Assembly (NCBI GenBank): GCA_012295275.1
Contig: CM022677.1
Coordinates: 12,090,001 to 12,154,000 of the forward strand
Direction: 5' to 3'
From: Chrysomallon squamiferum
Taxonomy: Eukaryota; Animalia; Mollusca
DNA length: 64,000 bases
In this document: piece after piece, positions 11,887-48,200 of the stretch
Layout of the letters: every line of letters begins with the position of its first letter
Position numbering within the stretch: position 1 is the stretch's first letter
Notes under the pieces: generated by a model
What the model was told of the DNA's origin: nothing
What the model saw: only the letters and a program-made list of their open reading frames with translations
Database searches by the model: none
Program-made: the position numbers and the translations under genes

Positions 11887-11981
11887 ATCTGTGAATAACA
11901 ATAACAATAATAACAACAGCAACAACATAGAAGAATCAGAGAAGATAAAAAGGAAAATACAGAGAAAGAAAAATGTAACTA

Positions 11982-12038
<57 letters not shown>

Positions 12039-18500: not shown

Positions 18501-18549
18501 ATTTTCACTCGAAAATAATTCCTTTTAATTCCATTTAAAAGAAACTTAG

Positions 18550-21408: not shown

Positions 21409-21445
<37 letters not shown>

Positions 21446-23660: not shown

Positions 23661-24948
23661 GTATGTATAGCTTTCAGCTGTCAAGTCAGTCAGCTGCCTT
23701 AATAAGAATGTTTAGAAAGATTTTATTATAATTATTATTATTATTATTATTATTTTAAACATAGCGTTAAGGTGATCTCTATAACGTATCATCATGAAAC
23801 AAATATTAAACAACTTAGCTAATTAGAATATTAATTGTTCCTGAAACAAACCCTTTATAGTCTGTTTATCACATATTGGCTGTACTTGAAGAACATTTTG
23901 AGTATGTGAACACTCTTTGCTTTTATTTTTATTATATCATTGTCTTTCATGTAATCCTAGGTTTATAACTTGTATACTGTAACCACAACCTGAAACCACA
24001 TAAAAAGTTGTACAATGATTTCTTAGAAATACAATTGAAAACAAGAACATTCTTAAAATGACTAAGAACAGCACCAGCTCCTTCAGTGAGGCATCTTGTT
24101 TGTTGTGAGATGTGACATGTGAAGTGGATGATGGATCCTGGTGGTTGAGTCATGTTTGATGTCTGCAACTGAGTACATTGCCACTGACAATTATTCACTT
24201 TGATCTAGAGTTCATGCAGCTAATAGCTATTGATTTGTTTAATTTTGCTAGAATTAGAATTCTTATTTTTATTATTATTGTATGTCTGTATATGTATGTA
24301 TTTATATTATTATTATTATAATTTTTATTTACTTATTTATTTATTTATTTATCAATTTTTCAATCTCTTAACTGCATCTCCATCTTTCTGGTTATTTTTC
24401 TAAATTCTAATAATTCAAATTATTTTATTTTATTATTTATTTATTATTATTATTATTATTAATATTGTAATTATTATTTTTCTTTTTACAAGCTAGTTAT
24501 AATTATTTTTATTATTTTTTTTTCTTCATGTTTCTTTTTATTCAGTAGGGAGCAGACTTTTTTTTAGTTTTTTAATAAAACAAGTCACCTAGTAATATCT
24601 CAGAGAATTAATATTTTTGTTACTAGTGTAGATGTTCTGTCTTCCTTATTCAAAACCTGTTTCCATTGATGATGTCGTATTTCTAGTGTTTGCTGAACAA
24701 ACCCAAACAATAATGAAGTTGTAAACTTGTATTGTCAATATATTTTGTTTTCTGGAAATTATTATTATTACTGATTTTTTTAGAACCAGTATTATTCTGA
24801 TAACTTGTTTGTTACTATTAGTGTCTTTTAAATAGTTATTGTATTTATATTGACAGACACTTTTTTCTCTTAATTTCAAGGTCTGCCCTGTGTTAATATA
24901 TGTATATAATTTGTTTTTCTTTCTATTTTTTGTTTGTTTTTTCCACAG

Positions 24949-27175: not shown

Positions 27176-27235
<60 letters not shown>

Positions 27236-27431
27236 CTGATACTCTGTCTCTCTTCTGTCTTTCTCTTTTCTCTGTCTCCTCTAAGAAACCCTAGCTTCAA
27301 GAATCTTAATTTATCATTATATATTTTTAACTTTCTTATTTATTTATTTATACTGGTTTTATTAATATAAATGTGTATTTCTCTATAATTTCAGAGCTAT
27401 TTTCTGATAATGTATATTCTGCACATTGTGA

Positions 27432-27476
<45 letters not shown>

Positions 27477-27606
27477 GTTTTGTTTTTTTTATTACCAGCT
27501 GGGATCACTTAATCTTGTATTCGGTTTTTTATCTGAATGATGCAAAAGTTAACAACCAAACTCTTATAGTTGATGGTAAATTTAGATTTGTAAAATATAT
27601 TTACAT

Positions 27607-27669
<63 letters not shown>

Positions 27670-28010
27670 TCTCTCTCTATGTATATATATACATACACAC
27701 ACGTGTATTTCATTCTGTAACTAGCTGGATTTGATGTATCAGAATATGTTTCAACTTTTTTTTCTTCTTCTGCTGATAGTTAAGATACAGTTACCAGGTT
27801 TGTTAATACTGTTTTTCATTTTTTTCAGATATTCCAGATTCCAAAGCAGTCACAAGTTCTCTACAGGAATTAAGTCTGAACTCCAGTTGTTTAACCAACC
27901 AGCTGTTTGAGTTTCCATATAAAACTCCTTTCTTTGAAAAGACGTGGACATTGGAAATTGTCCTGATCTTTCTGTATCTGTCATTGATGATTTAGTTAAA
28001 CTTACTTCAG
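24949..28010 (+). pseudogene. RNI-like leucine-rich-repeat gene fragment, copy A (exons 24949-25327, ~25801-25896, ~27010-27126, 27829-28010)
   Basis: A Pro/Thr-rich exon is followed by AVCLAVCSNTTVIFLSLTTNKTDTESA, YLDVSSNSVG and SLQELSLNSSCLTN LRR motifs. Stops and deletions are present. It is paralogous to 54726-51774. Confidence 0.72.
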
Positions 28011-28369
28011 GTAATGTTTTTAAATTTTATAAATTTTTATAATATTTGAATAATTATTCTATATATAATCCTAATCTTTCTCTATCAGACAGACAATTTA
28101 GTTAAGCCATATGCTAAGAATATTAAACTAAACTTTTTATTATGAAATAATTTTATGTAGATATTTTTTAATGTATATAAATATTTTGTTTTGTTATATA
28201 GTTGTAATTATTATGTATTTGTTATTGAGTAGGTAATTATGTATAAACTGCTTGTTTCCTTTTTGCTTTTGTTCTCATGTTCTCTGTCTCTGAGTCTGTC
28301 TTTCAGTCTGTCTTTAAGCCTTTTATAATTAATTTTCTAATTTCAGCTTTACTTATATTTATATTCCTG

Positions 28370-28866
28370 AGAGTGAGTGAGTATGTGTGTATAAGCAATA
28401 GAGATAATTGCTCTGACAATAGTCTGTGTGTATGTGTGTGTGTGAATATCAGCAATAGTGCAAATTGCTATTCTGATCAGTTTTGTGTGTATGTGTTGTA
28501 TCAGCAACACTGATAACTGCTACTCTGACATTAGTTGTGTGTTTGTGAGTGAGTGTGAGTGTACAAGCAATAATGATAACTGTTATTCTGTGTATGTGTG
28601 TGTGACTGTGTTTGTGAGTGTATCAGCAATAGTGATAACAGCTACTCTGATAATAGTATGTGTGTGTGTCTTTGAGTGTATCAGCAGTAGTGATAACTGC
28701 TTCTGTGATAATAGTCTGTGTGTCTGAGTAACTACTACTTTGCCACAGTGATAATTGCTACTTTGATAATTGTGTGGGTAATGGAAATAGTGATAACTAC
28801 TACTATGATATCAGTATGTGTGTGTTTTTGTGTTTGAGTGTATCAGTGATAATTACTACTGTGATC
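28370..28866 (+). repeat. Degenerate ~50-bp minisatellite running into a gap
   Basis: Repeated gtgtatcagcaatagtgataactgctactctga...gtgtgtg. Confidence 0.8.
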
Positions 28867-29066
28867 NNNNNNNNNNNNNNNNNNNNNNNNNNNNNNNNNN
28901 NNNNNNNNNNNNNNNNNNNNNNNNNNNNNNNNNNNNNNNNNNNNNNNNNNNNNNNNNNNNNNNNNNNNNNNNNNNNNNNNNNNNNNNNNNNNNNNNNNNN
29001 NNNNNNNNNNNNNNNNNNNNNNNNNNNNNNNNNNNNNNNNNNNNNNNNNNNNNNNNNNNNNNNNNN
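28867..29066. other. Assembly gap (200 N)
   Basis: Run of N. Confidence 0.99.
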
Positions 29067-29708
29067 ATTTGGAACCAATTACATCTTTAATCTGAGGTAT
29101 TATTGTAGTATGGATATCGCTTATCGCATAAAGTATGCAAATATGACAAATATCGAAATAATCTATATATCGAATATAGTGGATGTAAATAATTAAAAAA
29201 GAAGGTATTATCTAAAAGTATTCCAAATGATTTGGTCCTTCCTATGAACTTTTTCAGTCATAGCCAAAGTATTTGCAGGTCATAATATCTTTAGTGTACA
29301 TACTATTAATATACTATGTCACATATATTGTATTATATGTGCACAATGTGAATATGTATGTGTGCATAACGTCAATATGATCAGTAACTAATATCTTGAA
29401 CATGTTTAAGTTGAATATGGCTGAATTCGAACAGTTAATGAGAAATGTAACGTTCACATGTTCTGTTTACTGAATATAAGTAAATTACTCGTAAAATGTG
29501 TTAGTTATTTATAATATTTTTGTCGTTTTCTTTTACAGAAGCAAGCCATAAGCATTAATAAAAAAACACATCTTTATGCTTTTTACTTTTCTTTTATTTA
29601 TTTATTATTTTTTTTAATAGAAGATGAAATTGATGTAAAATTGTTTATTATTGGTCGCTTGTTTTGTAACGGAAAGGAAATGTTTATGAATTAGAAATGA
29701 CCAGTTTA

Positions 29709-29745
<37 letters not shown>

Positions 29746-31857
29746 GTAACAGTAACTGTAATTATAGTAATAAGAATAAGAATAAGAAGAATACGAATAA
29801 TAACAATAATAATAATAATGTTCATGATGATGATTATGATCATGATAATGAGGAAGAGGAAGATGATGATGATAATAATGAAAAATCTACAACAAATGAG
29901 CAGTGAACGCTTATTCTGCTTTCGGTTGATGTTACATAATCGTTTTAGGAACAATGCGCTCCGCCTCTGAATGTTAGAAAGAAACCAGATGTATGCACAG
30001 GCCAAGTTCATTATATTGCGGTAGACCAGCCTTTTCTATGAAATGGGAAGACAGCATAAAAATAAGTGTAATTTACAAGACGGCACATTCGGCACAGTTT
30101 CATTGGATCTCAATATCGAATCAGCACTGACTTCCTGAGATGGCAATAATAATACCAAGGAGCCCATAATCCATTTGCCATGTTTCCTCCTTTTGTGCAA
30201 ATGTCGCAAAAGGTAGTTATAATTCTCAAAATGTTCGTTAAGTCAAAAACAAGATTTTCACTGATTTTTAGCCACGATTTGTTGTTATCGTTGTGGTAGT
30301 GTGGGAGGGTGTTTTATTTAAAAAATAAAAGAACAAAAAATAAAAATAAAAATAAACAAAATAAATAAATAAATAAATAAAAGAATGAAAGGAAAGGAAA
30401 AGAAAAATGTGTAGCACTTTTCACTTCCGTAACAAATATGAAATGTAGATCAGGTATTAATCTTTATTTATTTGAAATATCAATATCATGAAAATATGTA
30501 TACCGCTAAATGTTTTCTAAAATCCGTTTTGTATCGTAAACAAACTATTATCGCTTTATTTTGGGAATGTGATAAAAATACTGGTATTTGACTGAATGTT
30601 TATTGTTGTTCTACCTGAATAGATTAAATGTATATTATATTAATATATAATTAATTAGCTATTACATTAGCTACTGTAGGATTGTAATCTCATGCAGTCA
30701 ACATGACATCTTGAACATTTCATAAAAAATATCTTGCGTTTTAAAGAATATTTTAAAATTTAATGAACTTCGATCACAGTATTTGTTTCAATAAAGCTTG
30801 AAACAATGAACTGAAATCAGAAGACTTTCTGGAACATAAAATTTCCATCATCCTCTTATTTTTTAGGTACAAGATATCCTCAATCGTTAATATCGGTTGA
30901 AGAAACTTTCTCGTGCTGCGGTGGCGAAACTTGGAGAAACAGAAACGAGCCTTTAAGAGAATTGTTACTGCTAACAAATTGCATCCATGTTCGCTACTTT
31001 AGCCGATATGTTTAAAATTCCTTCCAGACCTTGGTACCGTTCTTTATGACCGTGGCTTATCGCTTTGCTTTGAACTAGTGTAACTCCTTTTTACCTAAAA
31101 TCTTTATCATTACTTTTTTTCAAGGCAGTGTCACAGGATCCTATAACGATAGCAGTAACTGACCCTAAATTCAGATTTCCATGTAAACGAAATGGAAACC
31201 CATAACAGAATGGGTAAGCTACCCAAATTGGGTTTGCTCTATGAGTAATAACAGATAGGATTTTATATATTTAACTGTTTTATTAGCACGTTTAAGTTTA
31301 CTAGAAACAATACATACAGTACATTTCTGAATCTATATTTGCGCTATCGCTGACAAATTACTACAGCAGTAACAGTGAACAACAATATTTGTAGCATATC
31401 AGAACTACTAAACATATTTATTAGTTACAATTACTCTGAATACACACTCAAAAAGCAGATAAACGAGATTAATTTTTATGTTGCTTGCAATCTGACAACC
31501 ATTTTCGAAGTGAACTTCACGCTGGCTAATGGGGAGTGATGCCAACCGACTAATATCATTAATGACACACATATATATATATATATATATAGTTTTCCGA
31601 CTCCGGTTGAATAGCTAAATTCATAACAATTTCAAGAGAGTTATCTCCTATTAAAAAAAAAAAAAGAAGAAAAAGACTACTTCAAATGCAGATTGTAGAG
31701 TTCAGAATATTTGGTGGTTTCTTAATAAGGATTCTATATTCTATTAACAAAATCAATTTATATTAGATTCACCTTACTGTGACGAAGCTTTCACGTTTCG
31801 TGCGATTAAGTACAAAGCCCGAGACTATAAAATTACATTGATTAAATGAGTGGCGGC

Positions 31858-34800
31858 ATGTCGGATGTTGGGAAGTTGTGTCTGTTTCTTACATTATTCT
31901 TCACCCAGTTCGAAATTATTTCAGGTATTGTTAAAAATAGGATATATATATATATATATATAATTTACTTTACATTTTAACATATTAAATTTAAAACACA
32001 TTATTAATGTATAAACTTGCTATAATTCACTGCATATGTTTAGTAATTTGCAGGTTGTATGCTTTTCTTCAATGTTCTGACTTTTTGCATATGAAATTCA
32101 TAAGTTAGTGAAGGCCTAGTAGTTTTCCATTTTTTTAAAAAAAGCATTTTTCTTTTTCGTGTTTTTTTGTAAATTCGGTTTCATTTCCTTTTTGGGAATA
32201 AATGATGTAATAACAAAAATTAATATAGAAAATGGTCTTTATTCAAGAATCTTCTGGCCATGTAATTGTAACTAAATGAAGCAAACTTCAATGTCTCCAT
32301 TTACATGGCATGTTGCTTTGCTCTTTCTTCTCTCATTAAGTGGATGTTTGTATTGAGAAAAACTTATTTCAACATCAACAGAAGTTACATGCATCCAAAC
32401 AGCATCAGATGCTATGGCAGATAGCTTTAGGAGGCAACTCTGCATTGTGCATGCCTTGCCAAAACTCGGAAATGGACAAAATAGTGATAAGTACTTCATG
32501 ATGCCCCATATACATGAGCCATTCCTCGAGCAGCTCAAGAAATGGATTCAGCAGAGCCTCGAGAGCAGTGAAGTCTTTGATATTGTGTGCGATTGCAGAC
32601 AGCTGAGATGAATCAAAAATTCGTACTGTTTTGTAGTACGGATTTGCTGGATGCTTGTCCCACTAGTCTTCAAGTTCATTTAGGTAGAGACTGAATATAT
32701 ATATTTTTTTAAATGTATGTGGTTTTCCCTTTGATCAACTGGAAAATTCTCAAGAAGTCGATCTGTCTCTGGGCCAGAATTCAAAACAAGAATTCCAGCA
32801 AGATGAGATGGGTAGATGGTAGCTTCACATCAGGAGCAGCAATCAGTTCAGTGAGGTGTTTTATGTACGAGAGTGTTGAGCGCGGTGGGGGTAAACGCAC
32901 TTCGGCGCCCGTGGTCAGCAATTAGCGTGGAGTAAAAAGTCCTAAAATAGGGGCTCTGTACAAACGCCTGGCTTGTTTTCGCCACAATGACTTCAATGTT
33001 ATTTTTAGCACAGCAAGGAGGGTCAAAGTTCAATCTTTCTAGCAGTGTGCGTGTCGTCGCTGGCAATGGCTTATATCAATAGTTGTGTCCAAAATGTACT
33101 TTTTCATGCCTTCAAACCTTTTTTTTTTAAAACTGGCTGAAAATAAATCCTATGTTCACGGGATCAAATGAAAGATCATTCAATTACCTTTCAACCAATG
33201 TGCGACACTACGGTGCGTCTTCTTCGGCGAAAAGAAGCTCCGCGTTTGAAAGGGAAATCGCCATTACGTTACGTTTTTTTACAGAAGGATATCGCCGTAG
33301 ATTTCATGTACAGCTAGAATGGTCTGGCGTAGTTTGAAATGATTATATTTATATGTTGTTTATATTTTTAATAACTTGTTGGCTGATTATTTTTCTTCAA
33401 TGTTCCTACTTTTAGCGTATTATTATAGCACGTGCGTAGCGAAATCGCATTTTGAAATAAACGAATTAACATTGTTTTGACGATTACTATCTTCAGTTTA
33501 AAACCGTCGATTATTTTGCATTCAAAATTCTTGTGATAAACGTCGAATTAAGAATCGTAAGCATAACAAACTATACAACATAATAGAACAATGCATTCAG
33601 AGGTATTGATGGAATGCTGAATAAAAATCTAATCACTTTTAAAAAAATATAAAATCATAAATTGATCAGTTTTAAAACATTATTTTTGCTTATTTGTAAT
33701 CTCTATCAGAGAAAATTTCAACAATGGTCAGATGATAGGTAACTTTTGTTTGCTATTAAATCACAGCAAGTACAAACCTAAGAAAATTATTTTTTGTTTG
33801 GTTCAAATGACAGACTTATAACACCTGTGTCTTTAATTGCCTCTAGTTTCACGATTACATACATTTTATTGTCCCTGATTAAACCTGCAACATCTTTCTG
33901 GAGTTGACTCCAAGGATTAGCTGAGTATATGTATTGCAAAGGATTATGGTTAAACATCAAATGCTTGTAGACCTTTTCAGTAAAAGTTATATATATATAT
34001 GATATATACACATCACAGTATCTTAACTTATTACAGCCAGTTATTTAATAGAGTGAAAATTGAAGCTGCTTATGTAAATAAAGTGGTGCTGTTCTATAAA
34101 ACAAATGTTTTATTACAAATGTTAAATTCAAGTATGTCATTTGAAACATCTTGATAAATTCTTCACAACACAGGTTGAATTTGTCAAATAAGACAAAAAC
34201 TGAAACAACAGTGTTGATTTTTAGTCATTCTGCTGTGTGTCGTTTTGAAGATTTTGGCATGTTCAGCATGTTATTCTGAACACACATACAAACATACAGG
34301 TCTGAAAAAAATTGAGCTCATTTACCAAGTTGGTCCCATCACGCTTGTTGATTTTCAGTATTTTGTATTAATTACTTTTCAAACTACAGTTGGCCAAAGT
34401 AGCCCTTTCTGCTAATTAGCCAAAATAGGGCTAAAAAAGAACCAAATACCTGTCATACCAATTTGCATATATCTTCTTAACCGCTGGAGATAGAGTCATA
34501 CTTTTTTGTGTATATTCATTATTTTTGCTTTTGCATATTATGTGAAATTAAAGTCAGAACAAATTTGCCTGCCGGTACCTACATGATGCCAAGATCACGC
34601 ACTTCAATAGTTTCATCAGCTGTAATACTGACAAGACAATCACACAAAAGAGCCTTTATTGCAGCGAAATGTATGTCAGACAGTTTTGGGACATATGTGG
34701 TACAGAGTGTAGATCCTTGAGATATAGCTCTCCTGCCTACTTAAGATGGTTTTGGGTCATTCCATGTCAAATCACCCCACCTCCCGAAAAAAAAGATAGT

Positions 34801-37800
34801 GATTCCTAGCATCCAAAATTGATCATTCAGGTTTTAGTTAATCAGATGTTATTGGCTGAAAAGGTGTTATATTCATGTATGTGCATATTTCAAATCTATA
34901 TTGTGGCTAGACAAAAAATATTACACCCAGGAAACTTTTATATGTTTTAGTTAACATGTGGGAGATTAAATTTCAATAAAGGTCATCTCAATGTCACGTG
35001 ATCCACACGGTCAATTTCATAGCAAAGGTAAAAAGGTCAGTTTACTCCAGTATTTTCCATTGATCATTCAGGTTTTAGTTAATCAGATGTTATTGGCTGA
35101 AAAGGTGTTATTTTTATGTATGTGCATTTTTTAAATATATAAAAGTTATAAATACTCCAATATGAACATCCAAACTGAACAAAAATGGCAGATTTGGAAT
35201 CCTTGTCATATTGCCTTTTCAATAATTCCAATTTTATGACGATTGGCCCAGTAGTTCCTGAGATGTGAGGGTTCTAAGGTTGGTGGTCACGCCCATTTTT
35301 GCCAAAAATCTCAAACTTCGGTGGGCCATATCTCCCATACCACTGATCCGATTGGGCTAATAATTCAGTCAATAATTTGGTCAATCATCAAGTTACTTTC
35401 AGCAGCACTGAAAACTTTCTGACCATCATGTGCTCTGCTGGCTGTGTACGTCACACTTAATGTTGTCAGTCTGTCAGTAGTAATGGGAGATCCAGTGATT
35501 CTGACAGGAAGCTTGTTACTGTCTACGTACCACAAGATCTGTGTCTCATTTGGTGCTGGTTTGGCTCCCCGTACAACACAGGTAAAAACAGCAGAGTCTC
35601 CCTCAGTGATGCTAAATGAGTTTGGCCTTGATCCAGAAATGTTCGTGTTCGCAGAATTAACTGGAGCTGGAAAAGGAAAATAAAGAAAATTTACTGTGCT
35701 ATTCCTTATGATGTAATCAAACCATAAAATTCAGATAATGACACCAAAATGGGATTTACAGCAATTTCTGAAGTGCATAGAGTACTTTGTAAAGATTGCC
35801 CTACTCCACGTTCATACATACATAAAATATACTCTGTTCCCAATTTAAATAAATTACCTGTTGTGAGCCTTTATTCAGTATTATAATAAACTGCTTGTGC
35901 TAATCTAGAAAGGCCATACAGAGCTCCATAAACCCATGTAAATTTGTCAGCCTTGTAATTTGACCAATTGCTCAACATGAATAGGGGTCATTCCATGTCA
36001 AATCACCCATGTCATATCACCCCGTAAGTACCTTTTCCTATGCACAAACTAACTAAAACCAGTGAAAACCAGTATTGAGAGTATCTGTCACTAATCATTT
36101 TTTTTTTTTTTTTGATATTATCAGCAATTTGCCAACCATAGTTAGGAAGAAATGAACCACATGCCCCAAAAGCTTTATTATTATTTTATGTATTTTTTTA
36201 AAATATTTAATTGTAGTTTTATTTATAACAATTTGTTTCAAACTGATTTCATGGCAATGAAATATTTCTGAATTTATCATATTACATATGGTAAAAGTCT
36301 GAACAGAGGAGAAAAATCATTCAGGCTACAAGTTATTAAAAATAAAAACAACATGCAAGAATGTTAACAAGTTTATACATTTAAAGTATTTTAATAATAT
36401 AATCATTTTAAGCAGTGACAGTCCTTTCCAGTAGCAGTTATGGCATCTTCACAAGTAGGAAATAGAATTTAAGGATATTTTGCCTACATGGAGATCATCT
36501 TGGTAATATTTGTACTAATGTCTATCAAAACCTGACTTTCTATTTATTGGCTGATTTATTGTTTCATGTTAAATTAACCTATGGGTCATTCTGTGTCAAA
36601 TCACCCAATGGGTTAAACCTGACCATCTCAGATTTTTATGAAACTTGGTATACTTGTTGACACAGCACCAAATCTGAAATTTTAGGCCAATCGAAACAGA
36701 ATTTTGAGATAATCAGCCAAAATGACCACCAACCTTTGACACTCATATCTCAGAAACTACTGGGCCAATCTTCAAAAAATTGGTATTGTTGAAAAGGCAA
36801 TATGAAAAGGAAGCAGTTGAGAAGCAGGAGCCAATCCCTTATCACTAGTCGCCAAAGTGACTTAGGAGATAATACAACTAATTGAACTGATGGACTCAAA
36901 TTAGTTCAGTTTCAAGTGTTCCTCTTCAGTTGGATTCTGATGCTTTCACTGCCCTGTCATCATTTAACATTCTACCTGAAATTTCCATCACATGTAGTCA
37001 GAGGAAGATCTGTTTGCAACCATTCCATAGTCTGTTCCAGATGAAGATGCTGACCATATCACTGGAACTGAGACTCTGTACCTGGCCTGACAGTTAATAG
37101 TTGCCAGTGTTTCAAGGACAAGATGCTGTGCAGCTCTGGGTGTCATTCAACACAACATGTACAAATAAACTCCTTCCTTCCTGTAAAGGAACACTAAGCA
37201 AAATATTAGACATAATTTGAACTACTCTTCTTTTTTTTCATTAGAATGATTTCAGGAAATATTTTTAGTATATATTTAAAGTATGTGTGAAATGCTATAA
37301 TTTAGTAATATTAACAGTTTATCAACAAATTAAATTAAGAGAGTGTGGAATAAAAAAGTTTCCAAAAAAATATATATATATCAGAAACAAAGATGATTTA
37401 ACTTAAAAGGTACAGTTTCATAGCTTTCAAACAACAATATAACAATATTATAATTTATCAAAATAGTCTAGAGGCATCTCTTTATATATATTTTATGTTA
37501 ATGATATAGATATTTTAAATCAAACCTGTAATACATCATTTACCATTGTTCAGAGGATTATTGAAAATAATGTGGGTTTTTACATTCGATAATTTTCTTC
37601 ATTTTTTTTATTGTCATTGGTTTAGAGTGTGACATTTTCTGAAGGAGAGATCCATTGCAAAAATTATTTGGCATTTTATATTTAGTAATGTAACGATCAA
37701 AAAATAAATAAATTACTGCAAAATTACAGGGGCAAGCTATACACTTCAAAGCAGTTTATCACATTTGTATAGCTTATAATTTGTTGCTAGATGATACATC

Positions 37801-40111
37801 ATATTTCCGTTTAATAGGTTTTTCTTGTAGAATAAATTCTTCTAAACGTGTAAAACATTACATTCAAGTTTCCAGTTTAGTTATCTCGAAATTCAAAAAC
37901 AGCAGTGATGTGAATTTGATAATCTATGTGTTCGACAAACCACTTAGTGATATATAGTTTCTTAACAGTACTTATTCAGAGACACAAAGTCTGTATCAGT
38001 TAATGAATGGCACAAGAAAATTGGTGTTTATAGTCATTAAAAATATGTTATTTTTTTGTTTGTGATTTATTTACTCAGATCTTTGTATTTATAAAACTAT
38101 AGTTTCTCCACATTAAATTTTTTATCAGTATAATTTGAAGTAAATAACAGTCACTTGCAAAATATGGTCATGTGATCATTGGGAAAAATACTTCCAACTT
38201 CCCAGCAATATATTTTTAAAAAATGAAGGTGATCAATTGGTTCATCATGGATGAAATGGAAAACAGGTTTTAAAGAAAAGATCACTTGCAGGAAACTCTA
38301 TCATCACAGAAGGATTTTATTATTAAGATTGAGAAAAGGAGGAATTATTTCATTTTGACTATTTTTATTTATTTATTTTTTTATAATGAAGTATCTCACA
38401 AACTGGTCACTCACTAAAATCCTTGATTCAATACAAAAAAACTTCCTGGATTATAATTTTTTCTATTGTGTGGACACTTAAATAGTGTGTCACATGTAGT
38501 CATTCCTTTCAACCTGTCGCATGATATCAAGCCATCTATAAATGGTGTGCAAGAACACAACTTAATTGATGTCTGTGCAAGGTATCTATTCAATGATAAT
38601 TCAGCATAATCTGTTGATAGTATATAACCTTATCTCTAGATAAGCCTGACATTGTTATGTAATGCTGGAATAAAGTAGGATCATTATACCTTTTTATTTG
38701 TTGGTGTATTTATATAAATAATCAGCATTTCTGAATTTCAAAGATGATTTATTCCATAGCAGGACACTGATTTTAGATGTAATTCAATATTATTTTGGTT
38801 ATTTGGACTTTTCAAAAATAATGTTTGTGGTGCATTTTCCATTAAACAAATATTCAATAATGTTTGCAGCTTAAAAATTATAAAATCAGGTTTTTCATAG
38901 ATCTGAATAACAAGAACAACAACAAAAAAGAAACAAAAAACCAACAAAAAACCTGAATATATTCAAAAATATTTAAGATGAGAGGGGAAAACTATAATTA
39001 ATTTTATATTTTCAATTAAAAATAACTGTTAGTATTAAAAAATGTTGAACTAAACTTGTTTAAATGTAACTGATTCAACAAAATGAAAAATCAACAATAA
39101 ACTGAAACAATTGTAATATATATTTTTGCAGGTTTGATGAAATTAACAGATTCTGATGAAGGTGTTTTCAATCAAAGCTACATATTCCAGTGTTCTATAT
39201 CAGAAAACATCACTATAACTATGTCATTTACGAGGGGAAAAGATGCTTTATGTTCAGTCATGCCAAACTGTGTTCAATTCCTTGATTCTAATGATTACAT
39301 TTGTAAATGTGCTGGTGACACTCCTAATCTTTTCAATCTGACAATAAACAGTGTCCGAATTGAAGATGAAGCTAGCTGGACATGCACTTACGATAGAAAT
39401 GCCAGTAACGCGTTTTATCTAAAAGTTTGGAGTAAGTTATTTGTTTTTAATTCAATGAAGTAATACATTTTATTTATTTTTAATGTTTTTCTTTGTTCTA
39501 GCTACTATTACTTGTGCTTTTAATACAACAGTTATTCCAGTAAAAAATTATATTGTAACGAATTACAATCAGCAACGATAAAATATTTTTCTATCTTAAT
39601 TTTTTACATTCAGTTATTAAATTTCTTACACATAAATCATTATGGAATTTTAATCTGATATATAATCATTAAAGGATCATACTATTTTTTCTTCAGTATA
39701 ATGTTCAATCTGTGAAAGTTTTTATATTAGTTTATATTGTGCAAGAAAATGATTAACAGTGATAAAATTCTTATTAAAAGATTGTTTTTTCTTTTAATTT
39801 AATTATTTAGATTTTGTTTTGTTTTTTAATATGTTCTGAATTTTTAAAGTTTTACTGAGGAAGTGTTACAATGGTCTGGGATGTGCTTTCCATAAGACGT
39901 CTTTGATTTGAGTTCATTGGGTATAAACTAAACAAAATTTGTTAGACACATAAGGTCAAAAAATCCACCATCATTCACAGAAAGCGGCATATCTGGTCTA
40001 CATTATTAAGAAACAAGAGTTAATTTCTGGCCTAAAGTATGGTGGTGGTGTTTGTGTCTCTTTATTTTGTACCATGTTTAATCATAGTAAAGTTCAGATT
40101 ACTGTTCGGGT

Positions 40112-40147
<36 letters not shown>

Positions 40148-43100
40148 ATAAATAAAATTTAAACCCGACCTTCTCAGGTTTTTATGAAACTTGGTATACT
40201 TGTTGACTGGGATCCCTCAGCACCAAATCTGAATTATTAGCCGAATCGGATCAGTGGTGTGGGAAATATGGCCCACCGAATTTTGAGATTTTTGGCAAAA
40301 ATGGGCGTGACCACCAACCTTAGAACCCTCACATCTCAGGAACTACTGGGCCAATCTTCATAAAATTGGTATTATTGAAAAGGCAATATGACAAGGATTC
40401 GAAATCTGCCATTTTTGTTCAGTTTGGATGTTCATATTGGAGTATTTATAACCTTTATATATTTAAAAAATGCACATACATGAAAATAACACCTTTTCAG
40501 CCAATAACATCTGATTAACTAAAACCTGAATGATCAATTTTGGAATCACCATCTTTCTTTATCATCGAGTAAGACATGAAATCTACAGCGATATCCTTCT
40601 GTAAAAAAACTTAACGTAATGGCGATTTCCATAAGCACTTTCAAACGCGGAGCTTTTTTTTCGCCAAAGAAGACACACCGTAGTGTCGCACATTGTTTCA
40701 AAGGTAATTGAATGCTCAACAATACCAGTTTTATGAAGATTGGCCCAGTAGTTACTGAGATATGAGGGTTCTAAGGTTGGTGGTCACGCCAATTTTTGCC
40801 AAAAATCGCAAAATTCGGTGGGCTGTATCTCCCACACCACTGCCCGATTGGGCTAATATTTCAGATTTGGTGCTGAGGGATCCCAGTCAACAAGTATACC
40901 AAGTTTCATAAAAATCTGAGATGGTCGGGTTTAACCCATTGGGTGATTTGACACGGAATGACCCGTTTTCAGCAGATGTGCCATTTGATGAAATTTTATC
41001 AACTGATAAAACTTAACATTATTGCTACTTCTCTAAATTTTACCTTCCTGTCAGTGATGTGGCCTAGCTCATTCAATTTTACAATACTTTTTTCTTTCTT
41101 TCAAATCTTTAATAATCCCTAGATCTTTTTTAGTTCACTTATATTACAGTCTTCAAAAAACAAAACAAAAATAGAAAAGGAAAGGAAAAAGAACTTAATC
41201 TATGTTGAAAACTCAGAGGTTCTCCTCCAGAAGTTTGTCTGAAGGCCTGACTGCCTTTCTGTGTTCCTAGTAGGTAAAACAGTGCTGAACAAAATAGTAC
41301 ACTAACATAGCCATTACACAACAATGGTGTTTTCCACTCAGAATTCCACATACATGAGATGGTTTAATACATAGTGACGTATTTTAGTTGAGTTTGAACC
41401 CCTCAGTCTCCATTTTTGGTTACATTCCCAGCTGATTTCTCAATATAGCATGTGTCTACTAGTCTTGAGGGTAGGCATTACACATGTACTCTAGGGTAAG
41501 AGCTGTTTATCCCAATTCTCTTTGGGTTTTCATCTGGTATAGTCTTTCGAGTATCTGAAAAGTTCTCTTTTCCATTCAGGAAATATGCAGTGCATTAGGA
41601 GTTTCTTAATCTTATGGTCAACGAGCTATGTCTCATCTGTTTTTGTATCATTCATTTCCTGTTGTTTTCTGTTTTTGGCTATGCTAGAGCAGTTGATTAT
41701 CTGTGATTCATAGGTCACAATTAAACATGATACATAGTAATCTGGCTCTTTGTCTAGAGGTAATATTTCTTTCAGTTTGGAGGCTGTTTTAGTTCTTTGT
41801 TGGTTAATGTAATTTGCTTTTAAATAAACCAGCCATGTCTTTGCATGTTTCCACTGTGTGCAGAGCTTCTCACATTTGCTGTTGTAACTCGTTCTTCTGA
41901 ATAACATATAACCAGGTAGTCTGCATATATTGCACCCATGAATCCACTGTGGGATATCCTTTAATATATCATTACTATAAAATTATAAAGAGAATTAGTC
42001 TCAGAACACCATGGTGTACAGACATTTGTTTTTCTATATTTCGGTATTTTGAACATGTGCAATGTTAACCCAGATTTAACTCCAGTCTTTGTCAAAAGCT
42101 TTTTCTAGACAGCAAATGTAGGATTTGTTCTTTTTAATTTTTTTCTTTGAATGCATCCTTAATCTCTAGTCATATGGAGGTGATCTGATCTTTAGTGGAT
42201 CCTTTTTATCAGCTTTCCTACAAAGCGTTTTAAATTGATGGCTCTGAAGTGGTTTTAATTTATACTTTCCTATTTTGTGGATTCATATAGTGTGGATTTT
42301 CTCTCAGATTGTGCTACAGAGCTATTGACTCAGCTTGCACTGAAGATCTCTCCAGCATTTGTGAAAGGGATGGAGGGAATTGGTGTAACTGGTGCAACTT
42401 AAATGATGGGATGGTACAGAAATGTCCAGGTTACACATGCTTCGAACAATGTTTGTCAAACATACGCCTATAAATAATGGCATCAAAAACATTAACTATT
42501 AACAAGTTTGTTTTATTTGCAATTAAATAAAATCAAAGTGTCTATTAAATTTATTATACAAAATGAAGTTCACTAATAAAACAGGTAGCACTGCCGATGA
42601 ATGGCGGGCAAACTCGTCATAAGCTGTAAGTGATGGCGGGCCCACCCTCTCTTATAGTATGTTGCGAGACCTCTGTATAATCCATTTCCATTTTTTCCTA
42701 ACGTTGTCTTAAATGCTTCTTAATGCCAATGTTCATACCTTCTGCCCAAAGCAAAGGTGTTGCCCATTTTTGTGATATATCTACTTCACTGAAACAGGGA
42801 ATTTTTATTTGATTATTTTTCTTTTTTTATATGTTTTTAAATATTTATGAGTCATTCTGTGTCAAATCACCCAATGGGTTAAACACGACCATCTCCAATT
42901 TTTATGAAACTTGGTATACACGTGTGCATTATTTAAATATATATTGTGGCTAAACGAAAAAGATTACACCTTTGAAACTGTTATATGTTTTAGTTAACAT
43001 ATGGGAAATTAAATTTCAAGGAAGGTCATGTCAAGGTCACATGATCCATAAGGTAAATTTCAAGGTCATAACAAAGGTCAAATGGTCAGAGAACCCAACA

Positions 43101-43957
43101 TTTTTCAAACTGAACAATAATGCCTTTTCAACAATACCAATTTTATGAAGATTGGCCCAATAGTTCCTGAGATATCAGGGTTCAAAAGTTTGTGGTCATG
43201 CCCATTTTGGCCAAAAATCTCAAAATTCGGAGGGTCATGTCTCCAACCCCACTGGTCCCATGGGCCTAAAATTTCGGATTTGGTGCTGTGGGGTCCCAGT
43301 CAACAAGTATACCAAGTTTAATAAAAATCTGAAACGGTCAGGTTTAAAATATTCAGCATTTTTACCAGTTATTTAAAATAACTCTTTAGACCATTTAATA
43401 AGACATAAATCTTGTTTTATGTTTGTTAATATTTGCTATATGAAACAAACTTAATAATTATCAGTGTTTTATGGTTTGATTACATCATAAGGAATAGCAC
43501 AGTGAATTTTCTTTATCTTCATTTTCCAGGTCCAGTTAATTATACAATCACAGAAGTTTCTGGATCAAGGCCAAACTCACTTAACATCAATGAGGGAGAC
43601 TCTGCTGTTTTTACCTGTGTTGTACAGGGAGCCAAACCAGCACCAAATGAGACACAGATCTTGTGGTACGTAGACAGTAACAAGCTTCCTGTCAGCATCA
43701 CTGGATCTCCCACTACTACTGACAGACTGACAACATTAAGTGTGACGTACACAGCCAGCAGAGAACATGATGGTCAGAAAGTTTTCTGTGCTGCTGAAAA
43801 TAACTTGATGATTGACCAAAGTATCCCTGCTGTCAGCTCAACTAACAAAATTGAACTACATATACAAAGTGATCACCATTTTTTCTTTGTATTTTATTTC
43901 TCACCTTGTGTAAAATGAAGAAGTAGTTTCAAATGTAATACATGTTGTGTGTGTATC

Positions 43958-44019
<62 letters not shown>

Positions 44020-45217
44020 TCCGTGAATGTATGGTTTTTAGTAACAAGTCTGAAAGTAACCAGCACCTAACAAATACTGTTTATTTGAAATGTATGATTT
44101 GTAACATTTTGATATTAACGATGATTTAGATTTGTTGTACAGAATTGATTCGGTGCTGTTAACTGTAAAATAGTGTGCATGTGCTTTAAGATTAATTAAA
44201 TCTCACTGTAATGGAACAAATATCAGGAATATTCTTCAGAGAATGATTTGTTGACCTATTCAGAAATTATTCAGGCAGCAAGATCTTGAAACATGACCAG
44301 ATGAATAATTATGTCCCAGTCAGTAAGTTAATTTTGATACCAGAGTCTATTCTTACTGGCTTCATTGCAGAGTTTTATTTGGCTTTGAATAACATAAACA
44401 AATTAAAATATGGCAAATTAGAAACAGTTTGATCAAATGTAGTGACAGGTCTGGTATATTTTCATTTGTGATAGCCATAACTTTATTAACATAGAAAATG
44501 ATAGATCATTTTGATAGAGACAGGAACATTTTTTATATCCAGACTTTAATTTTTTAAATAAAACTGCTAGTAGTGGATGGATCAGTGAATGACATTTTTC
44601 CTTCTTAGCAGAAAAAAGAAATTCAACAAGTGTTCCTACAACAACTCCAAACCTGGGATCAGGTTCTGGCTGTAATTTAGTTTGTATTATCCTCATTACA
44701 GTTATCACTGTCACAGGTCTTTGTATAATCATAACATGCTGTCTGATATCACTAAGAAACCAAAACAAAAAGAAAAATGATAAAACTACAAATATTGAAC
44801 TGAGCAGTAAAACGAACACTGAAAAGTCTCAAACTGAGGTTTCTGTTGATATCAAAGCAGAAGAAAAGTGTAACATTCAAGAGAAAGCAGACAAAAAACA
44901 TGACACTGAAGATGTAGAAACTTCACAGATAGGATTGCTAATAATCTTCACACAATATGCCTGGTAACCATGGAAGTGATGACGATAATGAAAGTTCTGA
45001 AGATTACTCATATAATCAGACAAATGTAAAACCTGCAAATCAACCAGTCAGTAAAGATGTCTGTGAAGAACACAAGTCAGTCACTGATTCACTGATTAAA
45101 ACTGATGTGAGCAACAATACAGCAGAGAGCCAACATCCAACCAGACAGAATCACAATAATGTTGATCATCAGAAAACAAAACATATTACAACTATTGATG
45201 TGAAAATCAAATTATAA
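31858..45217 (+). CDS. Type-I membrane immunoglobulin-superfamily receptor: exons 31858-31924 (signal peptide), 39132-39431 (Cys-rich V-like Ig), 43530-43868 (C2-like Ig), 44609-45217 (stalk, TM, tail; frameshift near 44930-44960)
   Basis: MSDVGKLCLFLTLFFTQFEIIS|GLMKL...YIFQC...FNLTINSVRIEDEASWTC...KVW|SPVNY...EGDSAVFTCVVQGAKPAP..ILWY...ASREHDGQKVFCAAEN|EKRNSTS...LVCIILITVITVTGLCIIITCCLISLRNQNKKK. All three introns are phase 1, as is typical of Ig exons. NAGNAG acceptor at 44606-44611. Assignment of exon 1 to this gene is inference. Confidence 0.8.
32110..33330 (-). mobile_element. Degenerate, internally deleted hAT transposon (CGGBP1-like transposase)
   Basis: The minus strand gives WDKHPANPYYKTVRIFDSSQL...LELLEEWLMY and FWQGM...LSAIASDAVWMHVTSVDVEISFSQYKH.LNERR, resembling the hAT dimerisation motif (SxxxERxFS). 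Ends are approximate. Confidence 0.7.
34753..35368 (+). mobile_element. Non-autonomous DNA transposon (GGGTCATTCC..TCAAATCACCC termini, Sola2-like), truncated
   Basis: Terminus at 34753. The internal and right-arm sequence is the reverse complement of 40230-40540. The family call rests only on the GRG termini. Confidence 0.75.
35377..35740 (-). pseudogene. Antisense, 3'-truncated copy of Ig exon 3 plus ~70 bp of its upstream intron and acceptor
   Basis: The minus strand reads PVNSANTNISGSRPNSFSITEGDSAVFTCVVRGAKPAPNETQILWY...HDGQKVFSAAESNLMIDQ. It has 18 mismatches in ~291 nt versus 43530-43820, and the second Ig Cys is changed to Ser. Confidence 0.95.
35985..36810 (+). mobile_element. Further fragments of the same Sola2-like MITE family (termini at 35985 and 36583)
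   Basis: gggtcattc(c/t)(a/g)tgtcaaatcaccca termini. 36583-36810 matches the left arm of 40108-40964 with deletions. Confidence 0.75.
40108..40964. mobile_element. Foldback MITE with ~250-bp TIRs (Sola2-like) carrying a captured hAT-end fragment
   Basis: The right end is tgggtgatttgacacggaatgaccc. The left end gggtca is followed by an A-run. Arms 40160-40380 and 40717-40935 are complementary. Possible 4-bp TSD gttc/gttt. Confidence 0.85.
41140..42420 (-). mobile_element. Degraded non-LTR retrotransposon (RT plus RNase H-like, I-group-like)
   Basis: Minus-strand remnants LEKAFDK, NDILKDIP..., IYADYLV (YADD-like) and ALTLEYMCNAYPQD*..HAY. Many stops and frameshifts. Confidence 0.65.
42849..43350 (+). 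mobile_element. Sola2-like MITE copy just upstream of Ig exon 3
   Basis: gagtcattctgtgtcaaatcacccaatgggtt terminus. The right arm 43120-43345 is homologous to 40717-40935. Confidence 0.8.
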
Positions 45218-48200
45218 ACAAATGAAGCAGTTTCAAAGTTAATTTGTTTTTTATTCCAGACTTTTTATTTGCTTCAGCTCAGTACATTTAGCAACATTCT
45301 TCATTATTTCAGATAATTTCTAGATGCCAGTGATTGTTTGTGGATTCTGCTTAACTAATCAAGGAATAGCTTTATTTCTATCTTTTTTGCTAATTCTGAT
45401 ATAAGCAAAATAAAAAAGCTTTTAAAAGAAGTTTATACTATGTTGACTGTTTTAGTTCCACACTGAGTAATATGCTTATTAACATAGATAAAGTTACAGC
45501 TTAATGCTTTTCTTTCACAACACACACACACACACACAGACACAAACAAACACACACACACACACACAGTGAGATAAATGCAAGTCTGCTGCTTTATTAT
45601 ACTGTAAAACCTTTTATAAACACTTTTTAACAGTTTTGAATATAATGTTTGCAGTAAGAACTTCCATGACAGATTAAAATATATTAACTAAAATTAAGAA
45701 AAACCTTGAAACAAATTTCTTTTCTCTTTCATTCTTTCTTTTCTTCTTCACTAGATCATAGAGCATCACTATTACTGTTATATACCTGGTTTTTATATAT
45801 GTAAAGTTTCACCAATACATATGTTGAGTATGTATGGTTTGAACCCAGAAATTACCAGTTGTTGGCCTGCTCTGACAGTGTGTTTTGTTGTGGAATGTCC
45901 TGTATGGACTTTTTAATGAGACAGACCAGAATGTTTACATTTGATCTGATTATATTTCTGATTTATTATCTGAAATTATAGTTTGTAAATTAAATATTAA
46001 GGTTACTTGTCTAGTTTTAGTAATCAGATTACACCTTTTGCATCACCTTGTCCTTTGATATTATAGTAATAATAATATTATTATTATTAATATTATTATT
46101 TGTTCGATATTTTTCTTTTTTAAAATGTATTTTCTCCACTTCATTTGTTTTTACCATACTAAAGCTTAACTCATACACATTATTTATTTTATTTCGACAA
46201 CAAAGAAACAACACCATCAAGCAGTAAGTAACATAATCACATTGTTAGCCCTAACCTTGTGCTAATCATTCATGTAACCTCAGTTCCCCTTCCACTGTTC
46301 TTAATAAAACCCTCTGAAATCTTATTATGCAAAATCACTAATGAGAAACTGGTCAAGAATGCTTGAAAATTATTCTTTTCACAATATAATGATCTCATCT
46401 GATCAACACATTTCATTATTAAATTAACGTAAATTATGAGTAAACACAGACTTAAGACAGCCATAACGAAGGTGTTTGACTCAGGCAAAATGATGGATAC
46501 CACTGACATGGATGATACCAACATAGTGGTCATTGCTGACATCCTAGTCTCAGTAAAAGTCCCAGCCAATGTTATGTGCATTCACTTTAACTGGTTAGTG
46601 GTAGACAGAGTTCAGCCAGTCAGTGCAGAATCAGTGTTTTATAACCTCTATTAATTTGGCTTACAAGCAGACAAAAATGTTATGAATTGCATGGAGAAAA
46701 AGATAAAGATTTGCTCATAAACGGAGTGTTGTTGTTTCTTTGATCATGAGTTTTTCTGTGAATTAATAACCTGCACTTGTAAAACAGGATGTTTTAAACA
46801 CTCCACGTAGCACTTTTGCTTTAGATCAACAGTGAAAAACCATGTTAAATATCTTACAAGTATTAGGCTCTGGCTGCTTTTAGCCCCATTGGAAAGCTAA
46901 TAAAATATGTAGCAAGATGGGAATAAAAGTAAAGTCAACATATTTTTCTTCCAAAAAAAATAGATTTCAAGCATAAATTACAATATATTATAATCAGTCG
47001 AATTATCACTGAAACATCGTGTCATAGAGGTAACTGAATTTATATTTGGCAGAACTTAGAGTTGCAAATATTGAAAAGCTGTGACCATTATAGTAGGTTC
47101 AGTTGATTATTTTCAGCGAAAAACATTTGCTGCTGGCGGTTATAAACCAGTGAGTGTACAGAACAGCTCATTTAAAGAAGGAAAGGCTTTTGTGTGAATT
47201 TGTGGTGGGATTTTGAACAGGTGACTGTCAGACGAGTTTCGACTCAGTCTGTGTGTATGTATGTACAAACAGATAGATAAAGAGAGAGACAGATATACTT
47301 TGATAATTCAAAAAAACAACAACTGAAAAGTATCAATAAAATAGTTTAACTTTCAGGGAATTCAAATATTTACAGCAGTTTCTTCTAATGAATATACATG
47401 TACAGGCCTGTATATATGAGCATATATCTATATATCTAGTTAACTATCTATATATGAATGTCTGTATGTATTCAGATTTACAAACATAATTCACACAGTT
47501 CTCTTAAATCACATTTCAATTGCAAATAACATGTTTCCCACAATACACTCCTTTGTAAATACAAAGAAACACCAATCAGTAAGCGTTAATGGTTCACTAT
47601 GGCAGTTCTTTGAAGACTGTATGCAATTATATATTATGTAAAGAAGCCCTTCGCTTTACATAGGCAGATGACCTATAGCAAGTTCATTTTATTCTGCTTA
47701 AAGAACAACTTACTGTTCTCTGCTTTAAGTTTTCAGGGGCTAATTTCAATTAAATCAATAGTCTAGGACCGCAAAAAAACTTTGAGAAATAGGTTTTCAC
47801 TGTTGTCAGCAATTGAATGTTTTAAGGTCATTAAGAACGAATATGAGTTGGTTGGGAGATAGATGTGCTTGAAAGATATGAGTATATGTGTGCTGCTAGA
47901 TATTTGGTAGTAATTAAAGGATTATTTATTTATTTATTTATTTTAGGTAAAATAAGCGGAAGCGATTCCACATTTTCTTCAATGATTTATGTAATAATCA
48001 CGTAAGTAATCTTGTAACCATTTTATTTTTATTAGTTATTTTATTGTAATAGTAATTTTCTCAGCTTACCTCTCAGTATATCTGCATGTATCATCTGTAC
48101 CGCACATGTATCGCTCAGTCTGTTTGTGTTGTCATTCTGTATATCTACTTTTCTGTCGGACCGTCTTCGAGTATTTGTGTGTGTATGTATTACCTATATG

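What the first reader, a model, noticed from the sequence alone, without database searches (positions are those of the whole stretch)
35377..43868. Ig receptor carries an antisense copy of its own exon 3 in intron 1: candidate built-in editing or splicing guide
Seen: 35377-35740 is the reverse complement of ~43460-43820 (acceptor plus most of the C2-like exon), with 18 mismatches in ~291 exonic nt. It lies between the proposed signal-peptide exon (31858) and the V exon. If so, one pre-mRNA could form a ~360-bp duplex that hides the exon 3 acceptor and loops out exon 2. Six mismatches place a C opposite an exonic A (43544, 43546, 43552, 43584, 43626, 43800). Established: ADARs edit long duplexes formed with intronic complementary sequences and favour A:C mismatches. 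Inference: editing would give T>A (destroying the N-Y-T sequon), N>S, Q>R and N>S, diversifying the receptor. The 6/18 count alone is not statistically compelling.
Basis: partly seen in the sequence, partly recalled or inferred. Interest (0 to 1): 0.8.

Follow-up and report, generated by a model that had tools for sequence, protein, structure and literature searches.

The report
Backwards exon scrap in snail receptor
A snail immunoglobulin-type receptor gene really carries a 368-base backwards copy of most of one exon in what is likely its first intron, but the copy looks like a decaying DNA-copying scar whose mismatches are likely ordinary mutation and exchange with sister genes, and RNA editing or exon skipping there is possible but untested.

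Summary
Observation confirmed: 35372-35739 is an ungapped 368-bp, 93.2% inverted copy of 43457-43824 (acceptor plus most of an Ig C2-type exon); 18 mismatches in 291 exonic bases, six A:C as listed. Both junctions stand at single-copy depth in public DNA contigs, so misassembly is unlikely. Exon 1 (31858) is in RNA in one of two runs; its splice to 39132 is inferred, not seen. The guide reading is not supported. Three of the six A:C sites are CpG-to-CpA changes (3/5 versus 3/67, p=0.003); two sit in a predicted open loop; two are silent; the copy has lost the invariant cysteine. It is fused to a transposon piece of the same age (about 3%), its 5' third is a paralogue-like mosaic (13%), its partner lies 7.7 kb and two introns away, and 11 other inverted pairs compete. 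The exon belongs to a multi-copy gastropod family, which confounds editing calls. Editing at the six sites was not testable. Best reading: template-switch inverted duplication decaying as a pseudo-exon; by-product skipping or hyper-editing (as in human CHM and MANBA) remains possible. The scan has noted this kind of copy before in other genomes.

The parts
31858..31924 (+). Exon 1, predicted signal peptide, phase-1 donor (a second in-frame ATG at 31846)
   Evidence: In frame with exon 2; RNA contig depth 52 in X7 for bin 31788-31971, 0 in X9; single-copy DNA depth; CpG o/e 0.87 in 31000-33500 falling to 0.12-0.23 over exons 3-4. Splice to exon 2 inferred.
35059..35368 (-). Transposon (MITE-like) piece, inverted 97.1% match to 40229-40538; first half of the composite insert
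   Evidence: 9 mismatches in 310; summed DNA depth about 400-500 times the flank
35369..35375 (.). 7-base junction; a 7-mer here (35371-35377) repeats one 12 bases upstream (35359-35365), like a templated insertion (inferred)
   Evidence: bridged by X2 record 15 (35256-35426, depth 429.5)
35372..35739 (-). Antisense pseudo-exon: last 73 bases of intron 2, acceptor and first 295 bases of exon 3; no stop, no indel, no donor end, second Ig cysteine lost
   Evidence: right end bridged by X1 record 8 (depth 78.9) and X2 record 16 (depth 468.6)
39132..39431 (+). Exon 2, V/I-like Ig domain (weak)
   Evidence: Pfam I-set E 0.022, V-set E 0.029, both below cut-off; matches the Ig domain before the C2 domain in Gigantopelta P0027, pairwise E 3e-4
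40141..40964 (.). MITE-like element in intron 2 with 220-bp inverted arms (93%, 338-base loop); likely template of 35059-35368 and a competing duplex
43457..43824 (+). Sense arm of the inverted repeat (intron 2 end, acceptor, most of exon 3)
43530..43868 (+). Exon 3, CD80-like C2-set Ig domain, member of a multi-copy family
   Evidence: Pfam C2-set_2 30.3 bits, cut-off 21; Gigantopelta relatives 42-56%; summed DNA depth over the copy 14.7x and 8.7x the flank
43542..43556 (+). Cluster of 8 exon/copy differences in 15 bases, holding three of the six A:C sites
   Evidence: Scan p=0.0002; 43542-43548 unpaired in the predicted duplex
44612..45214 (+). Exon 4: stalk, predicted transmembrane helix, tail. 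The frame stops at 44964; a 90-codon open stretch in another frame (44945-45214) may be the rest of the tail

Best explanation
The 368-base antisense copy is real and is likely a decaying scar of one DNA template-switch event, with no selected role in editing or splicing. Inferred steps: replication or repair copied two nearby templates backwards (an intron 2 transposon piece and the intron 2/exon 3 boundary) into intron 1, joined by a short templated filler, about 3% divergence ago. A paralogue-derived tract later replaced the 5' third on one side, giving 13% there. CpG decay and random change supplied the rest, including the A:C pairs and loss of the Ig cysteine. In the pre-mRNA the arms would pair only rarely, because they are 7.7 kb and two introns apart, intron 1 can be spliced first, and closer transposon duplexes form earlier and cross this one. 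Normal four-exon mRNA is predicted to dominate.
For: Shown: composite insert with two inverted templates. Equal divergence of the transposon piece (9/310) and the 3' part of the exon copy (7/234; Fisher p=1.0), against 18/134 in the 5' part (permutation p=0.006). 3 of 5 CpG guanines of the copy are A in the exon, against 3 of 67 other guanines (p=0.003), in a CpG-poor gene body (o/e 0.12). No constraint: 2 silent and 15 replacement changes fit neutrality (p=0.22), and an open frame is expected half the time; Cys is invariant in 9 of 9 Gigantopelta domains but Ser in the copy. The copy's letter at 35616 is carried by about 934 of 1340 summed depth in X1, far above one copy (about 75), so it is shared with family members. 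Q and R at the 43626 codon are both genome-encoded in relatives (4 and 3 of 9). 12 inverted pairs of 50 bp or more lie in 31760-45300, and the 35059-35368 duplex crosses this one. From papers: Alu editing falls off with distance on a scale of about 800 bp and is weaker across different introns or exons (PMC4066801, abstract and section 12); long duplexes are hyper-edited rather than site-selectively recoded (PMC9989829 passages); Aplysia had 2 coding sites among 12,546 hyper-edited sites (PMC5625713 Table 1 passage).
Against: The duplex is very stable if formed (-605 kcal/mol), and human intragenic inverted duplications go with exon skipping (CHM, MANBA; passages). The insert sits at full single-copy depth in both DNA runs laid, so it looks common or fixed. 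A>G plus T>C places are modestly more frequent in the RNA than in the DNA contigs over 30500-36000 (103:105 against 75:119 relative to C>T plus G>A, pooled p=0.035; p=0.16 and 0.12 per pair). This stretch is mostly repeats from anywhere in the genome, but it fits active repeat editing. ADAR1 is active in a gastropod (PMC6651903 abstract). A local origin of the transposon half is weakly supported: hundreds of family copies exist, and only 1 of 4 diagnostic letters is shared with the intron 2 copy. Which side received the paralogue tract is not resolved. The distance figures come from human Alus, not snails.
Confidence: 0.62

Rival explanations
1. Same accidental origin, but the duplex forms often enough to have an unselected effect: promiscuous A-to-I hyper-editing of both arms and/or skipping of exon 3 or exons 2-3. 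All skipped products would stay in frame (253, 240, 140 aa).
For: Stable duplex covering the acceptor; in-frame skips; CHM and MANBA precedents; slight A>G/T>C excess in RNA contigs. X9 record 32 differs from the copy at 11 of 188 bases where window exon 3 differs at 5, and X7 record 24 at 13 of 150 where exon 3 differs at 18; the letters were not shown, so edits cannot be excluded.
Against: 7.7-kb separation across two introns; competing and crossing duplexes. The CHM hairpin has a 274-base loop. X9 lacks exon 1 RNA, and an X9 contig differs from exon 3 at 2 of 30 further bases by non-A>G changes, which points to a paralogue or another allele.
Confidence: 0.25
2. One reading: a kept editing-complementary sequence or splice switch whose A:C mismatches steer ADAR to recode the receptor and remove a glycan site.
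For: Six A:C pairs, nominal p 0.008-0.12; four of them are predicted single mismatches within helix; four would recode; the insert looks fixed in two DNA runs.
Against: Three of six are CpG decay. 43544, the glycan-site base, and 43546 lie in an open loop. Two are silent. None has the U-A-G context (preference recalled; contexts). 94 adenosines lie in the exon arm, so a 368-bp duplex would not be selective. The changes fit neutral decay. At the 43544 codon relatives have V, I or M, not T, so the exon rather than the copy probably changed.
Confidence: 0.05
3. The copy works at DNA level, as a donor for gene conversion into exon 3 or as one arm of an inversion that would flip out exon 2 and join the copy's intact acceptor and 5' tract to the rest of exon 3, diversifying an immune-type receptor.
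For: Mosaic divergence; intact acceptor and open frame; exon 1 to exon 3 is in frame; inversions between inverted exon copies are reported at mouse and deer-mouse Agouti (PMC2713407 passages).
Against: An open frame is expected by chance half the time; several full paralogues could donate equally well; the cysteine loss would be harmful if transferred; no inverted junction was seen among the rows shown (15 of 102 joints), though only one arm was laid.
Confidence: 0.06
4. Alternative origin (independent of function): the copy is the last relic of a paralogous gene in a larger, older inverted duplication centred near 39.7 kb.
For: 24260-28362 and 55320-51426 form an inverted duplication on almost the same anti-diagonal (coordinate sums 79,250-79,790 against 79,196).
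Against: No mirrored exon 2, exon 4 or unique intron sequence; the copy ends mid-exon at a transposon junction; the outer arms are mostly more diverged (about 6-18% substitutions by block); an assembly gap (28867-29066) lies between.
Confidence: 0.15
5. Assembly artefact: a haplotype or paralogue placed backwards.
For: Multi-copy exon beside high-copy repeats; the window has three gaps; no single record spans the stretch.
Against: Both junctions are bridged by contigs at single-copy depth: left in X2, right in X1 and X2, two studies, whose flanks differ from the window.
Confidence: 0.02

Closest known systems
Human intragenic inverted duplications of CHM exon 12 (PMC8756506) and MANBA exons 8-11 (PMC6549551); passages read
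   Same: An exon with flanking intron copied backwards inside its own gene; template switching proposed, with a short filler in CHM; a pre-mRNA hairpin proposed to cause skipping.
   Different: Those are new, disease-causing alleles with skipping shown in cDNA (CHM loop 274 bases). This copy is partial, 7% diverged, apparently common in the species, 7.7 kb upstream, and skipping is not shown.
ADAR editing-complementary sequences (GluA2 Q/R and R/G type; PMC1920255 and PMC3479170 seen as search listings only, details recalled)
   Same: Intronic sequence complementary to a coding exon, with A:C mismatches.
   Different: Known ones are short, imperfect, conserved between species, mostly close to the exon, and have measured editing (recalled). 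This one is long, near-perfect, young and distant, with no editing or conservation shown.
Inverted-repeat hyper-editing substrates (Alu pairs, PMC4066801; metazoan repeats, PMC5625713, PMC9989829)
   Same: Two 300-370-base inverted copies, over 90% alike, in one predicted pre-mRNA.
   Different: One arm here is coding; the separation is about ten times the human decay length.
Mouse Agouti exons 1A and 1A' inverted duplication (passages in PMC2713407; the primary paper not read)
   Same: Inverted exon duplicate within one gene, able in principle to mediate inversion.
   Different: Non-coding promoter exons there, with inversion observed; none is observed here.
Uncharacterised Gigantopelta aegis Ig proteins XP_041373731.1, XP_041373857.1, XP_041373028.1, XP_041372865.1, XP_041372866.1, XP_041373703.1
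   Same: The same C2-type domain (42-56% identity); in P0022, P0026 and P0027 other Ig domains precede it, and in P0023, P0026 and P0027 a hydrophobic stretch follows closely; all six report the same 53.4-Mb longest contig.
   Different: Function unknown for all; whether their genes hold antisense copies could not be examined.

Membership tests
ADAR editing-complementary sequence (site-selective recoding) | Complementary element in the same pre-mRNA as the target exon | tested here: inconclusive
   Exon 1 upstream of the copy is in RNA in X7 and in frame; the splice joint itself was not displayed.
ADAR editing-complementary sequence (site-selective recoding) | A>G in RNA but not DNA at defined exon sites | tested here: inconclusive
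   None of the six mirror positions is among the 40 of 319 rows shown; contigs only, paralogues mixed, no matched individual.
ADAR editing-complementary sequence (site-selective recoding) | Target A in a helix, mismatch pattern not explained by mutation | tested here: not met
   2 of 6 in an open loop; 3 of 6 CpG decay; remainder 3 of 15, p 0.20-0.33.
ADAR editing-complementary sequence (site-selective recoding) | Conservation of pairing between species | not testable with these tools
   No whole genome held; no related loci in metagenome contigs.
Intragenic inverted duplication by template switching (FoSTeS/MMBIR-like) | Inverted copy of nearby sequence with real, unique junctions | tested here: met
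Intragenic inverted duplication by template switching (FoSTeS/MMBIR-like) | Several templates, with microhomology or templated filler at junctions | tested here: inconclusive
   Two templates of equal divergence and a repeated 7-mer at the inner junction; the pre-insertion allele is unknown, and local origin of the transposon half is weakly supported.
Pseudo-exon (non-coding exon relic) | Truncated, lacking a donor, not under protein constraint | tested here: met
   Ends 44 bases short of the donor at a transposon; Cys lost; changes fit neutrality.
Hairpin-induced exon skipping (CHM/MANBA type) | Skipped products in cDNA | not tested
Transposon-captured gene fragment multiplied with its carrier | Transposon-fragment junction present in many copies | tested here: not met
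   The junction contig is at single-copy depth (429.5 against 412-491).
Immunoglobulin superfamily receptor with C2-set domain | Ig domain above a curated cut-off, signal peptide, transmembrane helix | tested here: met
   C2-set_2 30.3 against cut-off 21; signal peptide and transmembrane stretch read from the translation, no predictor run.

The most novel reading that the evidence does not exclude
A fixed antisense pseudo-exon in intron 1 of a snail immune-type Ig receptor is a built-in diversifier: it pairs with exon 3 to drive ADAR recoding and in-frame loss of one or both Ig domains, or it donates its paralogue-type tract to exon 3 by conversion or inversion, so one gene yields several ectodomains.
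Probability: 0.1. Interest if true: 0.75.

Novelty: new member of a known kind. Interest (0 to 1): 0.25.

Why it matters
As a scar it matters little: it is one more intragenic inverted duplication, here in a fast-evolving gastropod Ig receptor family, and a warning that editing calls in this exon will be confounded by the copy and by paralogues. If editing or regulated skipping were shown, it would be a clean case of a young editing-complementary element born from a coding exon, and a post-transcriptional route to receptor diversity in an invertebrate. That can be tested with one gene-specific RT-PCR and matched DNA.

Tried and rejected
No whole genome is held, so paralogues could not be counted or aligned. 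The ESM Atlas only confirmed C2-set. A crude scan for another signal-peptide exon in 28000-39100 gave no candidate downstream of the copy among the 15 best shown. Rejected: misassembly, and transposon-borne multiplication of the fragment (single-copy junctions). Rejected: the copy as part of an intact minus-strand gene (no mirrored exon 2 or 4; no long open frame at 32250-32900 or 36810-37230). The open frame of the copy is no sign of function. Low RNA depth (1-3) in intron 1 is not used as evidence of pre-mRNA, because it is the same upstream of exon 1. Summed contig depth is not a copy number; short overlapping contigs inflate it, so 9-15x means only several more copies than the window's two. 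Paper searches listed no report of an antisense own-exon copy acting as a guide in a mollusc Ig gene; the library lacks most subscription papers. PMC11263572 (passages) gave nothing decisive; PMC526178 was seen as a listing only. No supplements were read.
Full report
Observation. Self-comparison of the window gives an ungapped inverted repeat, 35372-35739 against 43824-43457, 368 bp at 93.2%. The copy holds the last 73 bases of intron 2, the acceptor, and exon 3 up to 44 bases short of its donor. Directly beside it, 35059-35368 is a 97.1% inverted match to part of a MITE-like element in intron 2 (40229-40538), so the insert is a 681-bp composite with a short filler in which a 7-mer repeats one 12 bases upstream.

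The gene. Exons 31858-31924, 39132-39431, 43530-43868 and 44612 onward join in phase 1 to a 353-residue protein: signal peptide, weak V/I-like domain, C2-set domain above the Pfam cut-off, stalk, hydrophobic helix and tail. Of 129 hits in the representative library I fetched six of the top seven (the 6,980-residue P0025 was left out). All six are uncharacterised Gigantopelta aegis proteins with the same longest contig, 42-56% identical over the domain. The neighbouring TRIM-like protein also has Gigantopelta proteins as its only named relatives (6 of 17 hits). The animal is therefore likely a gastropod, not a coleoid cephalopod. CpG o/e is 0.87 around exon 1 and 0.12-0.23 over exons 3-4, as expected for an unmethylated promoter and a methylated gene body (interpretation from general knowledge).

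Is the arrangement real? Four of the 11 listed runs (two RNA, two DNA, two studies; contigs only) were laid on 30500-36000. The left junction is bridged in X2 (35256-35426, depth 429.5, 5 differences) and the right end in X1 (35700-36000, depth 78.9) and X2 (468.6), all at the depth of single-copy flanks. One run could be the source of the assembly, but both differ from the window in the flanks and come from two studies. Misassembly and transposon-borne multiplication are thus unlikely. Summed depth over the copy is 14.7 and 8.7 times the flank, where the window's two copies predict 2; this is no copy number, but it shows several more family members. Exon 1 is single-copy and has RNA depth 52 in X7, against 1-3 in most neighbouring single-copy bins. 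In X9 it has 0, although C2-like RNA is at 52-57, and an X9 contig differs from exon 3 at 2 of 30 further bases, so X9 likely expresses paralogues. X7 also holds 0.31 of the words of 43400-45300, against 0.12 for X9. The copy is therefore probably inside intron 1, but the splice was not displayed (24 of 798 loose ends and 32 of 4,998 pieces were shown).

The A:C mismatches. Six of 18 has P = 0.008 to 0.12, depending on the transition share and base weighting, for one class chosen afterwards. Three of the six (43546, 43552, 43626) are CpG in the copy and CpA in the exon: 3 of 5 CpG guanines against 3 of 67 others, p=0.003. The remaining 3 of 15 are unremarkable. In the predicted duplex 43544 and 43546 fall in an open loop from 43542 to 43548, so the change that would remove the N-Y-T site is not an A:C pair in a helix. 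43546 and 43552 are silent. In nine Gigantopelta domains the 43544 codon is V, I or M (8 of 8 with a residue), Q and R both occur at the 43626 codon (4 and 3 of 9), N is usual at the 43800 codon (6 of 9), and the cysteine that the copy has lost is invariant. Both sides carry derived changes.

Mosaic. The 5' 134 bases differ at 18 sites (13.4%) and the 3' 234 at 7 (3.0%); permutation p=0.006 for the best split. The transposon half differs at 9 of 310 (2.9%), the same as the 3' part. At 35616 the copy's letter is carried by about 934 of 1,340 summed depth in X1 and 899 of 2,332 in X2, more than one copy in each. The simplest reading is one inverted duplication about 3% old, and a later conversion tract from a paralogue on one side; which side is unresolved. 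Local origin of the transposon half is only weakly supported, since the family has hundreds of copies and 1 of 4 diagnostic letters is shared. Silent and replacement changes (2 and 15) fit neutrality, and an open frame would survive half the time by chance.

Would it pair? The duplex is -605 kcal/mol and covers the acceptor, but its arms are 7,718 bases apart across two introns. The presumed pre-mRNA holds 12 inverted pairs of 50 bp or more, covering 2,990 of 13,541 bases, among them a -528 duplex with a 4.9-kb loop that crosses this one and a -374 hairpin with a 338-base loop. In human Alus editing decays with distance on a scale of about 800 bp and is weaker between different gene segments (PMC4066801, abstract and section 12). 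Long duplexes are hyper-edited in clusters, and most putative recoding sites lie in such clusters (PMC9989829, passages). Aplysia had 2 coding sites among 12,546 (PMC5625713, table passage). On the other side, gastropod ADAR1 is active (PMC6651903, abstract), inverted exon duplications go with skipping in human CHM and MANBA (passages), every skip here would stay in frame, and RNA contigs over the laid stretch show a mild A>G/T>C excess over DNA (pooled p=0.035; not significant per pair; non-independent places, mostly repeats). Two RNA records over the copy differ from it at 11 of 188 and 13 of 150 bases, where window exon 3 predicts 5 and 18; their letters were mostly not shown, so paralogue, allele and editing cannot be told apart. 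Editing at the six sites is untested, not refuted.

Verdict. Most likely (0.62) a template-switch scar decaying as a pseudo-exon with little effect; 0.25 that it causes unselected hyper-editing or skipping; 0.05 that it is a selected guide; 0.06 a DNA-level donor or inversion arm; 0.02 an artefact. A separate question is origin: an older inverted duplication of another gene fragment (24260-28362 with 55320-51426) lies on almost the same anti-diagonal, so a relic of a larger palindrome is possible (0.15), but nothing else is mirrored and an assembly gap intervenes. It works like the CHM/MANBA class of intragenic inverted duplication; it fails the one membership test for an editing-complementary sequence that could be decided here. 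Earlier notes of this scan describe similar antisense exon copies in other genomes, some judged scars and one with RNA support for editing; these are unchecked leads. No paper on such an element in a mollusc Ig gene was listed. New member of a known kind; interest 0.25.

Noticed in passing
window 44612-45214: The receptor's tail stops at 44964, while an overlapping 90-codon open stretch in another frame (44945-45214) looks like the rest of a cytoplasmic tail and holds one tyrosine. Possible frameshift allele, assembly error or further splice; no Pfam hit.
   Followed up: partly
window 24260-28362 and 55320-51426: Older inverted duplication of a spliced gene fragment flanking the Ig gene, both copies pointing inward. 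Some exons look leucine-rich-repeat-like by eye; no Pfam hit. Nearly the same anti-diagonal as the exon copy.
   Followed up: partly
window 35651 / 43545: The window's copy and exon 3 share C (sense) here, while nearly all laid DNA depth has T (1355.5 of 1355.5 in X1; 1374.6 of 1438.9 in X2). Fits a CpG decaying both ways, or a shared derived letter; X1's own allele of the copy is not seen with the window's letter. Unexplained.
   Followed up: partly
window 32900-35370: Nest of repeats in intron 1: summed DNA depth about 10-30 times the flank at 32900-34700 and about 300-550 times at 34730-35280. MITE-like ends begin with GGG or GAG (Sola-like, recalled, not tested).
   Followed up: no
window 9941-12108 (-): TRIM-like gene: RING exon (Pfam zf-RING_UBOX above cut-off) and a long coiled-coil/propeller exon, about 40% identical to Gigantopelta proteins.
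   Followed up: partly
window 18539-18817 and 21119-21478 (+): MIB/HERC2 domain exon (44.3 bits, cut-off 33.5) and further exons of a separate gene.
   Followed up: no
window 60858-62863 (-): Broken transposase-like reading frames (hAT/ZBED-like by eye; weak DUF4371 hit).
   Followed up: no
window 56000-58339 (+): Low-complexity open frames and a tandem array (56814-57886), possibly a decayed non-LTR retroelement (by eye).
   Followed up: no
window 32021-33353: X2 shows joints skipping about 1.3 kb of intron 1 at depth 322-446, while other X2 contigs cover the skipped part; likely due to a short repeat at both ends (76% over 59 bases).
   Followed up: no
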